Positions 1,451 to 30,719 of a DNA stretch of 64,000 bases are shown piece by piece; the stretch's first letter is position 1; each line of letters opens with the position of its first letter. The stretch is from the human T2T-CHM13v2.0 reference genome, Homo sapiens. A model generated the notes under the pieces. That model searched no databases. It was not told where the DNA came from and saw nothing but the letters and a program-made list of their open reading frames with translations. The translations under genes and the position numbers were made by a program. The DNA is taken from the NCBI RefSeq assembly GCF_009914755.1, contig NC_060935.1; one strand, 5' to 3'.

Positions 1451-1717
<267 letters not shown>

Positions 1718-25515: not shown

Positions 25516-25532
25516 AAGTAGGGGAAAGGTCA
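25516..25532 (+). promoter_or_regulatory. PPAR response element (DR1) AAGT-AGGGGA-A-AGGTCA
   Basis: DR1 with A-rich 5' extension typical of PPAR/RXR sites. Fatty-acid/PPARalpha induction of CPT1A through an intronic element is established; that this is the same site is inference. Confidence 0.75.
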
Positions 25533-25671: not shown

Positions 25672-25802
25672 CTCTCCGTGGGAAGGTCGAGCCCTGCGGT
25701 GCCCAGCTGTGGGGACAGCTCGGTGCTCAGTGCTTCTGATGACAGATGCTGCATCCAACGAGCCAGAAACGCAGGCACCGCGCTCAAGAGCCCAGGGCGC
25801 GT
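25672..25802 (-). other. CPT1A: Candidate alternative 5' exon ('1b') with ATG in frame with CPT1A
   Basis: Donor GAG|GTGCGT (GT at 25671-25670); possible acceptor CCCCTTTTAG|AC at 25803-25804; ATG at 25754 is 83+13=96 nt upstream of the main ATG with no stop; lies in a CpG-rich patch. Confidence 0.55.
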
Positions 25803-27283
25803 CTAAAAGGGGCTCACTGTGAAGCCTCAGTGAAAACTGACGGTGTTTTTATGAATGAGCACTCGGGGCCAGGGTTGGGTAAGGGCAGGCCCTCGTTCCA
25901 GGGCTCCCCGGAGGCCCAACTTGACCGCTCGGTGACCACTGGTCCGGGGCCGGGGCCAAACGCAGCAGCCGCAGCAGTATCGGAAGGGACCCAGTTTAAT
26001 TCTCTTCCCCTCCAGGGTAGGCGGCTTGTTTTTAGTACCAACTCGAAACGTTATTTTGGCCTGTGCATGATGCCAACTTCTGCCACTTTGAAACAAAGTG
26101 TGTGCACTCCCAAACCTGGCCCTTTTTATTGTTTGATTCCAACTGTTAAGATAGGGTTCAAGTGCAAGGTCTAGGCTAGCAATGCTTCACAGGAAGGAAA
26201 CCAGTAATTTACATGCGAAAAGCAGTCCACAGGCTCTTGGTATTGAGGCAAAACCAATCCAAAGAACCAGCTGCGAATGCTGATAGTCCCCAGACCAACT
26301 GACAGCTGGATGTTCGCTGGCCTCAGCGGTGTGCATTCTCAGCGACACTTATGTCCTCAATTTATTGCTACGTTCACTCGGTCAGAGTCGCCTTAAAGAA
26401 TTTGGAAAGGCCCGGGGGTGGGGGTGCTTCCTGGCATAAATAGAAGACCAGTGCTCAGCCATTTTTTATTCACTTGGTTTGTGGCTTAGAATGAAATAAA
26501 CATGCTTGCATATCTGGAATGACCAGAAACCGGACACCTGTGGAAGAAAATGGTGTAACAAAATACAACGTTGCAAAAGGTAAAACCGATTTTCATTTTA
26601 TTCGGTAACTTACAAAGTTACCAGCTTCCTACTAAAATCTGCCCTTAAATATTTTATAACACACGGAGCCGAGAGGAACCGAAAGCCTGTGCCGAGTTGG
26701 GAATATTAACTTTGTTATGTATTTAACCTGGTAGGTAGTTGGGATTTTTAACTCTCTGAGTTGTTTTCTTTTTTTAAAGTAAGATCGGCCCTCATCTTTG
26801 AGTTCTGCGGCTTTAACGAAAGCCAAGGGCGGATTTACATTATAAAGACGCTGACCCATGGCCTCTCCTGACAAACCGAAAGAAGCCGGCTGTTGGCTGG
26901 CCGCGGCGGTGGCTCCGAGAAGGGGCTGCCCCGCGTGGCCCTGACCGCACCGTCGGGCTCGCAGGCCAAGTTCGCCAGGGCACGGCCACGTGACACCCCC
27001 ACCCTCCCGCGGCCCCGCCGCTCCCAGCCCGGCACGACCTTGGGCACATGCTCCGCGCCCACCCGCCCTTGACCCAGCGCTGCACGGGAGAGGCTGCGGG
27101 GCGCTCCCAAGCAGGCACTGGGCCCGGCACCCTCATCCTGCTCACGGCAGCGCTCGGACCGCGCCTGGAGTCCCTGCGCCAAGGGCGTGTCCCGACGGCT
27201 GCACCGCGAGGGCGGGCATGGGGAGGGGGACCGGGGAGACGGACGCTGGGATGGGGTCAGCGGCGCCCTGCCGAATCCCGAGG

Positions 27284-27894: not shown

Positions 27895-28036
27895 CGAGTC
27901 AGCTACGGAGGTGCGGCAGCGGCAGCGGCAGCGGCGGCGGCGGCGGCGGCGGTGGAGTGAACGAGCGGCGAGCGGGAGCCGGGGAAGGAGGGCCGCGGGC
28001 GAGGCCGAGCGCACCCGACGCCGGCAGCAGCGGATT
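27895..28036 (-). other. CPT1A: CPT1A non-coding exon 1 (5' end approximate)
   Basis: GC-rich, ATG-free segment in the CpG island ending GCTGACTCG|GTGAGG; contains a GCC repeat. An in-frame TAG lies upstream of the CPT1A ATG after splicing. Confidence 0.85.
27913..27951 (-). repeat. (GCC)7-(GCTGCC)3-type repeat in the 5'UTR
   Basis: Plus strand reads (GCGGCA)3(GCG)7. Confidence 0.9.
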
Positions 28037-28457
28037 GGCTGAGGCGGGTCCGGCTGCGGCGCCTGCAGGCGGGTGACTCCCGGCGCGCGGAGGGCGGGCC
28101 CGGGGCCTCGGCGGGGCGGGGCGTCCGCGGGGCTAGGAGGGGAGGGAAACTGAGGCTCGAGCGGGTGCTCGCGTCCTCGACCTCTGCCGGAATGGGGTCT
28201 AGGACGAGATTCCTCACCCTCCGAGCCTCAGTTTCCTCATCCGTAAAACGAGCCATCTCGTGGAGGCCGTGCGCATAAAATCGCTTAGCTCCGTGCCTGG
28301 CTGATCCTCGCGACTTATCTATCGGCATTGCCCCGTGTAATGCTCCAGGCACCCCCTGATGGTATTCACCCCTGACTCTTTCATGCAGACAAGGGTCGCG
28401 GGCCAGGAAATAAGTTACCCCACATCACCGAGCTGAGAAGCAACCGATCCACAGGGA

Positions 28458-29599: not shown

Positions 29600-30480
29600 G
29601 CGACATTTTGGTGACACAGGCCAAGCTACCATGCCGAAAAGTTTACCAACTTCCACTGCCACCCGCGCGTGCAAGCGGGGCCCTGTCTCCGATTATGGAT
29701 TATTTTAATCTTTGCCAATCCTAAAAGGAGGGGTGGGGGAGGGAAGAATCTCTCATCTCTCCTTTTAATTTGCATTTCTTTGAGGTTAGAAGTTGGGGGT
29801 TTGTCCCCCTGCTTGCGCTTGTCTGGACCACCAGTGAGCCCAGGCACTCGACCCCCGCAGATTTCACCGCCCCAAGAGGCCAGTGGGCTGGGCCAGGGCA
29901 CACGTTCCTGACGCGCGGCTGCACCCCACGAGCCCGGGCGGCTCTCGCGCGTGAGGCTCTCCTTGCACGTGGGCCTTCGCGGTTTGCACTACGGAAGCTG
30001 GACTGTCATTCTCACCGCAAATGCCCTTCCCTCCTTTCCCTGGAACCTCAGCCACCGACAGGTCCCCGCTCCAAGGTCATTTCCTCCCTCGCTCAGCGCC
30101 CCGGTGCGCGCCCAGCTGGGATTGGCCCCGCGCCCTGTCTGTTCCCAGGGCTCTTCGGCCTTGACCGTGCGCCCTTCCCTGCGCGCCGCCTAGGTGCCAC
30201 CTGCAGGCCGGGCGGGGCAGGGACAGGGACCCAGTCTGTGGGGACGCCGAGGCGCCACGCTCACCTGTGCCATGGTGGCCGGGCTCTCGGCAGCTGCAAC
30301 GAGCCCGCGCCGGCCTGCAACTGCAGCCGCACTGGGGAGGCCTTATTCCCCTCCCGCCGACCACGCTGCAGCTCTCCTGCCCGGGTCTGCGGCTCCCGCG
30401 GCTGCGTAGCTGAGTCTATTAATAAAGAAGCAGAGAACGAGGCCTCCCGGGGAGCTCCGGGCCTGAGCCTCAGTTCCCTG
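29600..30480. promoter_or_regulatory. Upstream CpG island (alternative promoter candidate)
   Basis: CpG-dense, GC-rich, non-repeat block ~2 kb upstream of exon 1. Confidence 0.7.
30265..30400 (-). other. CPT1A: Candidate upstream alternative first exon of CPT1A (5' end approximate)
   Basis: Consensus donor CAG|GTGAGC (GT at 30264-30263) preceded by GCCACCATGG, inside a separate CpG island. Confidence 0.6.
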
Positions 30481-30719
30481 GGGCCAAAAACGTCTCCATG
30501 TCTGCCTCTGAAACTAGAGTAATCTTTCTCAAGCCTTGTTTTTTACAGATTCTGCCCCAGTTTGAATACTGTAGCAATTGCCTACCATAGCTACAAGAAA
30601 AATTTTCTTTTTAATGCAGGTAATGTTTTTATTTACCGCTAAGATTTCTCTTTTTACTCAAAAAATACTTTTTTATGGAAAAATCCAAACCTTTTTATTC
30701 ATTCGTTCATTCATTCATT

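What the first reader, a model, noticed from the sequence alone, without database searches (positions are those of the whole stretch)
30265..30280. Upstream first exon creates a 26-codon uORF overlapping the CPT1A start
Seen: splicing 30265 directly to exon 2 puts the strong-context ATG 22 nt upstream of the main ATG, out of frame, encoding [26 protein letters not shown] with TGA at 1541-1539 inside the CPT1A CDS. Established: overlapping uORFs in optimal context strongly repress the main ORF and can trigger NMD. Inference: switching to this promoter would give mRNA but little enzyme, unlike ATG-free exon 1. Use of the AG immediately before the main ATG (TGAAG|ATG) would instead give in-frame MAQ-MAEAH.
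Basis: partly seen in the sequence, partly recalled or inferred. Interest (0 to 1): 0.7.

Follow-up and report, generated by a model that had tools for sequence, protein, structure and literature searches.

The report
Translation-blocking alternative start of CPT1A
An already annotated upstream first exon of the human fat-burning gene CPT1A carries its own start codon, which would divert ribosomes into a short dead-end frame if the exon is spliced to exon 2, but that start codon appears not to be conserved, so this is likely a minor, poorly translated transcript and not a dedicated off-switch.

Summary
The arithmetic is right. The RefSeq-annotated upstream exon 30397-30265 ends in GCCACC|ATG|GCACAG and a strong donor. 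Joined to exon 2, its ATG lies 22 nt before the CPT1A ATG, out of frame, for 26 codons (TGA 1541-1539). Not shown: that this junction is made (an acceptor-flanked exon at 26537 is an alternative), how much of this RNA exists, or that the uORF is translated. It is absent from one Ribo-seq catalogue, which also misses 2 of 3 control genes. New evidence: two unnamed homologous ORFs from other genomes show that the exon region and donor are conserved but the uORF start is not. One has a pyrimidine at -3, the other cannot encode ATG there, and both probably carry a different ATG 73 nt upstream. Best reading: a minor, translationally handicapped 5' leader of a known kind, LUTI-like in layout, with regulation unproven. 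No support was found (0 of 197 proteins).

The parts
30265..30397 (-). Upstream alternative first exon of CPT1A (here called 1U), 133 nt, 73% G+C
   Evidence: Hub annotation row (exon of other RefSeq transcripts); single copy in the genome (1 match)
30270..30279 (-). uATG (30273-30271) in perfect Kozak context GCCACCATGG
30259..30267 (-). 5' splice site CAG|GTGAGC, 7 of 9 matches to the donor consensus (main exon 1: 5 of 9)
   Evidence: the residues of both homologues are compatible with a kept GT
30417..30424 (-). TATA-like TATTAATA, 27 nt before the annotated start; the only 1-mismatch TATA match between 29518 and 30539
   Evidence: the 7 residues of homologue P0198 across it need no base change
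30344..30346 (-). ATA in human where both homologues probably have ATG (an upstream start inferred to be lost in human)
   Evidence: inferred by back-translation
1598..1610 (-). 13-nt untranslated leader of exon 2; it sets the uATG out of frame
1539..1541 (-). TGA that ends the overlapping uORF inside the CPT1A CDS
1457..1597 (-). CPT1A codons 1-47 = the whole Pfam CPT_N domain (PF16484, 1-47 of 47); main ATG itself in strong context (A at -3, G at +4)
27895..28036 (-). Main, ATG-free first exon, 2.2 kb downstream, which a 1U transcript reads through
   Evidence: matched by the N-terminal extension of a cat gene model (tblastn E 2e-13 in a 38-kb search)
25672..26537 (-). Annotated exon with a pyrimidine tract and AG at 26537: a rival splice target for 1U; holds 8 ATGs

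Best explanation
Exon 1U is an annotated upstream first exon of CPT1A whose ATG sits in perfect Kozak context and out of frame with exon 2, so mRNA spliced from it to exon 2 would make little CPT1A; the ATG appears lineage-recent, so this is likely a minor, translationally handicapped leader and not a selected switch. Steps. (1) A TATA-like, CpG-rich promoter 2.4 kb above the main one fires: annotation shown, strength and tissue unknown. (2) The strong donor splices to exon 2: inferred. (3) Scanning ribosomes start at the uATG, read 26 codons past the CPT1A ATG and stop, so they cannot reinitiate on it: frame shown, repression follows from established rules, untested here. (4) Residual enzyme would come from leaky scanning to the strong main ATG; some NMD is possible: inferred. 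(5) Because the main promoter supplies the enzyme, ATGs in 1U would come and go with little selection: inferred from two homologues.
For: Frames and contexts. Promoter-like features. Homologue P0198 has Leu over the codon whose middle base is position -3, which forces a T there. In P0199 Trp replaces the CAT codon, and no synonymous choice gives ATG at that site. Both align well on either side and keep Gly-Thr-Gly over the donor. Both probably have another ATG at 30346, as turnover would give, and 71-83% of null sequences of this make-up hold an ATG. No CPT1A row in the Ribo-seq ORF table of PMC10032668, where the CPT1C uORF is listed. The main exon 1 is ATG-free and matches a cat gene model.
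Against: Only 2 homologues, unnamed, read through protein back-translation. The perfect 10-mer is rare locally (0.05-0.16%). All three lineages seem to hold some out-of-frame ATG in this exon, which also fits selection for a repressive leader. The promoter region is conserved. The Ribo-seq negative is weak: MDM2 and ATF4, 2 of 3 control genes, also had no row in that table. No expression data were available.
Confidence: 0.55

Rival explanations
1. Regulated LUTI-type off-switch: induced transcription from 1U runs over and dampens the main promoter, and its own mRNA is undecoded because of the uORF.
For: The layout matches: distal promoter 2.4 kb upstream, uORF only in the distal leader, ATG-free proximal leader. 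TATA-like element and conserved region. An out-of-frame ATG is probable in all three lineages; in P0198 the upstream ATG is 63 nt above, and so in frame with, the human uATG site. The paralogue CPT1C has a regulated repressing uORF (PMC3178533).
Against: The uATG and its context are not kept in 2 of 2 homologues. No inducer, no chromatin data and no paper found on a regulated CPT1A distal start. Having some out-of-frame ATG is near the chance rate.
Confidence: 0.2
2. The 30265-to-1610 junction is not the real one: 1U mostly splices to the 26537 acceptor, or reads on unspliced as an enhancer-type RNA, so the overlapping uORF does not exist. The RNA would still be poorly translated.
For: 26537 has a good pyrimidine tract and AG and must be fed by an upstream donor. 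That route closes the uORF after 26 codons inside the exon and adds 8 more ATGs. RefSeq enhancers lie at 29678-30067 next to the donor (hub).
Against: The main exon 1 donor could equally feed 26537, and 866 nt is long for an internal exon. The exon 2 acceptor is strong.
Confidence: 0.12
3. 1U is a tiny coding first exon. Its three codons end in phase 0, so skipping exon 2 and joining exon 3 gives an in-frame CPT1A without residues 1-47. Acceptors at 1597 or 27902 would give in-frame short extensions instead.
For: Exon 2 holds exactly 141 coding nt and the 1U-to-exon-3 frame is open over 49 codons. The lost piece is exactly CPT_N (PDB 2LE3 covers residues 1-42). A perfect Kozak context suits a real start. 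In-frame at 1597 and 27902.
Against: Phase agreement has a 1 in 3 chance. 0 of 197 retrieved CPT1 proteins start with MAQ, although these are cluster representatives and only the best 120 of 1676 and 120 of 404 hits were shown. The start is not conserved. No protein of 162-2000 aa matched 1U read in the main frame (0 of 477 candidates).
Confidence: 0.08

Closest known systems
LUTI (long undecoded transcript isoform) repression; human MDM2 distal/proximal promoter toggling (PMC6469420, PMC8153250; search listing and start of abstract only)
   Same: Distal promoter gives a uORF-bearing leader, proximal promoter an ATG-free one, with the same CDS downstream.
   Different: No shown induction, transcriptional interference or translation block. 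1U is a spliced alternative first exon with one overlapping uORF, and its start codon is not conserved.
CPT1C repressing uORF (PMC3178533; passages read)
   Same: Same gene family; an AUG uORF in a 5' leader.
   Different: The CPT1C uORF is in the main transcripts, present across mammals, tested in reporters and listed in the Ribo-seq table. That paper states that no annotated mammalian CPT1A has a uORF, but for human it tabulated only NM_001876, so the 1U leader was not covered.
Overlapping out-of-frame uORFs (uoORF/oORF; ATF4 uORF2 as type case, recalled)
   Same: Strong-context ATG whose frame runs past the main ATG, which excludes reinitiation on it.
   Different: No short upstream uORF to allow stress-dependent bypass as in ATF4; confined to a non-selected transcript; translation not shown.

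Membership tests
overlapping uORF (uoORF) | AUG upstream of and out of frame with the main AUG, stop inside the CDS | tested here: met
   conditional on the 30265-to-1610 junction
overlapping uORF (uoORF) | The spliced mRNA exists | not testable with these tools
   The exon is annotated (hub) but the next exon is not given; no RNA reads were available
overlapping uORF (uoORF) | Translated (ribosome footprints in its frame) | tested here: inconclusive
   No CPT1A row in the PMC10032668 table, but only 1 of 3 control genes had one; larger catalogues not examined
conserved regulatory uORF | Start codon and context conserved across mammals | tested here: not met
   -3 purine lost in P0198, ATG impossible at the site in P0199; n = 2, from protein back-translation
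LUTI | Gene-distal promoter upstream of the productive promoter | tested here: met
   30397 against 28036; TATA-like at -27 (hub)
LUTI | uORF(s) only in the distal leader | tested here: met
   1 ATG in 1U, 0 in main exon 1
LUTI | Main ORF poorly translated from the distal isoform | not testable with these tools
   Predicted from context only
LUTI | Distal transcription represses the proximal promoter in cis, in a regulated way | not testable with these tools
   Needs CRISPRa/i and chromatin data
NMD substrate | Stop more than 50-55 nt before a downstream exon junction | tested here: met
   82 nt; the short-ORF escape rule (recalled) works against it

The most novel reading that the evidence does not exclude
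The upstream promoter changes the enzyme, not only its amount. The Kozak-perfect ATG is in frame with exon 3, so 1U with exon 2 skipped (or reinitiation at Met70/Met73 after the uORF) yields a CPT1A lacking the N-terminal regulatory domain, hence a malonyl-CoA-insensitive fatty-acid import gate chosen by promoter use.
Probability: 0.06. Interest if true: 0.75.

Novelty: new member of a known kind. Interest (0 to 1): 0.3.

Why it matters
CPT1A sets the rate of fatty-acid oxidation and is often measured by mRNA alone. If the 1U leader is abundant anywhere, mRNA would overstate enzyme, and the published statement that CPT1A has no uORF (PMC3178533) would need a qualifier. As it stands, uORF-bearing alternative leaders are common (about half of human transcripts have a uORF; start of the PMC3964959 abstract), and this one looks young. 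Only the regulated-switch or the domain-skipping reading would be of real note.

Tried and rejected
Protein search with 1U read in the main CPT1A frame: 0 of 477 candidates at E up to 1, lengths 162-2000 aa only. N-terminal extensions: 11 of the 120 proteins; 8 were tested against the window, and the only clear match was the cat model to main exon 1. A porpoise extension looked like 1U by eye but scored 20.6 at best against shuffles of 21.0 +/- 1.9: rejected. Of 197 proteins, 11 lack exon 2: 8 short unnamed ORFs and 3 gull models, all ending in acceptor-like residues, so read as intron read-through. P0200, the third of 3 hits (E 1e-4, 651-aa repeat protein), was dropped as spurious. Pfam: no family for three non-canonical frames. 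In-frame CTG/GTG/TTG codons in 1U have weak contexts and are not proposed as starts. Inverted repeat 27896-27925 / 30387-30416 is taken as chance in GC-rich DNA; no test was run. Literature: searches listed no title on a CPT1A uORF or distal promoter; only PMC3178533 was opened from these lists, and one search showed 20 of 27 papers. The classic CPT1A gene-structure, promoter and deletion papers and the newer Ribo-seq catalogues (for example the supplements of PMC13275300) were not seen and may bear on novelty and on translation; bioRxiv supplements were not seen either.

Full report
1. Observation. On the minus strand the exon annotated at 30397-30265 ends GCCACC|ATG|GCACAG and a GTGAGC donor. 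Exon 2 starts at 1610 with 13 untranslated bases before the CPT1A ATG at 1597. Joined, the uATG is 22 nt upstream, in frame +1, open for 26 codons, with TGA at 1541-1539, 59 nt into the CDS and 82 nt before the next junction. Main exon 1 has no ATG. The main ATG is itself in strong context. The 251-nt region has one match in the genome.

2. Chance. In null sequences of this length and make-up an ATG occurs in 71-83%, a strong context in 21-23%, and the full GCCRCCATGG in 0.05-0.16%. It is the only such 10-mer in the window, and 37 of 100 shuffles hold at least one. The donor matches 7 of 9 consensus bases against 5 of 9 for main exon 1; donor-like 8-mers are at chance density in the window (15 found, 13.25 expected). 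So the perfect context is locally rare but chosen after the fact.

3. Is it a real start? The hub's RefSeq table lists the exon and ends the gene there. The region is CpG-rich (68% G+C, CpG obs/exp 0.71 for 30001-30500). TATTAATA lies 27 nt above the annotated start. It is one of 24 one-mismatch TATA matches in 3251 nt, but the only one between 29518 and 30539. Annotated enhancers adjoin it (hub). Level and tissue of use are unknown.

4. Where does it splice? The table does not say. Routes computed: to 1610, the overlapping uORF; to 26537, which has a good acceptor, a 26-codon uORF that closes inside that exon, followed by 8 more ATGs; unspliced, 27 codons; to 1597, in frame, but a weak AAG behind a strong CAG; to an AG at 27902, in frame through an 8-nt piece of main exon 1. 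Of 14 AGs tested between 28200 and 27896, only this last gave an open fusion with the CDS. That this segment governs malonyl-CoA sensitivity, and that enzymes truncated there stay active, is recalled and was not read. No database support: 0 of 197 retrieved proteins begin with MAQ (best 120 of 1676 and best 120 of 404 hits, cluster representatives only), and 1U in the main frame matched 0 of 477 longer candidates.

5. Conservation. No mammalian genomes are offered, so I searched 1.84 billion protein representatives with the 112-codon genomic frame that crosses the uATG and donor. There were 3 hits: P0198 (E 3e-29, 85%), P0199 (E 4e-13, 52%) and a spurious P0200. Both real hits are unnamed ORFs that read through the donor into the intron, so they show conserved DNA, not splicing; their divergence fits other mammals (inference). 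Codon by codon: P0198 has Leu at the codon whose middle base is the -3 position, forcing T instead of A, while its His codon allows ATG or ACG. P0199 has Trp at the CAT codon; no synonymous choice of Ser-His-Trp-Gly contains ATG. Both keep Gly-Thr-Gly across the donor. At 30346, where human has ATA, P0199 begins with Met (7 minimal changes in 30 nt) and P0198 has Asn-Glu, which gives ATG if the Asn codon equals the human one. In P0198 that site is 63 nt above the human uATG site, so in the same frame; in P0199 it would be frame +2 given a 13-nt leader. The 13-nt phase appears kept in cat, seal and whale models (read from the extensions; inference). So the exon region is old, the particular uATG with its perfect context is not, and some out-of-frame ATG is probably present in all three. 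That fits neutral turnover, and less strongly a conserved repressive leader. The sample is two.

6. Translation evidence. The supplements of PMC10032668 (6 files searched, one cut when stored; 7,264 ORFs by its abstract) have no CPT1A entry. The CPT1C uORF is listed, but MDM2 and ATF4 have no row in the ORF sheet, so the negative is weak. Newer catalogues were not examined.

7. Mechanism. Shown: frames, contexts, splice signals. From established scanning rules: few ribosomes would leak past GCCACCATGG, and those that stop inside the CDS cannot restart at the main ATG, so a 1U-exon 2 mRNA should yield little full-length CPT1A. Downstream ATGs are an out-of-frame one 14 nt after the stop, and Met70 and Met73 at 148 and 157 nt, so any reinitiation would give a truncated protein. 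NMD is possible by the junction rule but doubtful for an 81-nt ORF (recalled). Inferred: the isoform is minor and the uATG unselected (0.55). Rivals: regulated LUTI-type switch (0.2), different splice route (0.12), in-frame coding first exon (0.08).

8. Known systems. It works like a LUTI or uORF-bearing distal leader such as MDM2 (PMC6469420, PMC8153250; listing and start of abstract only). Two layout features are met; repression in cis and poor translation are untested, so it is not filed as a LUTI. It fails the test for a conserved regulatory uORF. PMC3178533 (passages read) describes the CPT1C uORF and says annotated CPT1A has none, tabulating only NM_001876 for human. Searches listed no title on this CPT1A leader; searches gave nothing I could use on N-terminal deletions (listings only). 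Subscription papers on CPT1A gene structure were not seen and may already describe the exon.

9. Verdict. Real feature, annotated exon, apparently unreported uORF of a common kind, start codon not conserved, function unshown. New member of a known kind; interest 0.3. Boldest open reading: promoter-selected CPT1A without its regulatory domain (probability 0.06, interest 0.75).

Noticed in passing
window 25672-26537 (-): The annotated exon has an ATG at 25754 in frame with CPT1A (32-residue N-terminal extension if joined to exon 2), behind 7 other ATGs.
   Followed up: partly
window 25520-25532 (+): DR1/PPRE-like AGGGGAAAGGTCA with an AAAGT 5' flank, 2 mismatches, about 2.5 kb into intron 1; one of 5 DR1-like hits in 7 kb. 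An intronic PPRE in human CPT1A is recalled from the literature, not checked.
   Followed up: no
window 27895-27902 (-): AG at the end of a GCC/GCT repeat tract, 8 nt before the main exon 1 donor; used as a micro-exon it would put the uATG in frame. No evidence of use.
   Followed up: partly
window 30344-30346 (-): Human ATA where both homologues probably have ATG: a possible loss of an older upstream start in the human line.
   Followed up: partly
window 30261-30542 (-): The main CPT1A frame is open without ATG for 92 codons through exon 1U and upstream, with in-frame CTG/GTG/TTG codons in weak contexts.
   Followed up: partly
window 27896-27925 and 30387-30416: 30-nt inverted repeat, 80% complementary, linking the 1U start with the 3' end of main exon 1; probably chance.
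   Followed up: no
window 28223-28250: CTCAGTTTCCTCATC stretch just upstream of the main promoter that resembles a MIR repeat core (label recalled).
   Followed up: no
proteins P0137-P0139: Three gull CPT1A models (748 aa) replace exon 2 with a 25-residue N-terminus ending in acceptor-like residues; possibly an annotation artefact.
   Followed up: no
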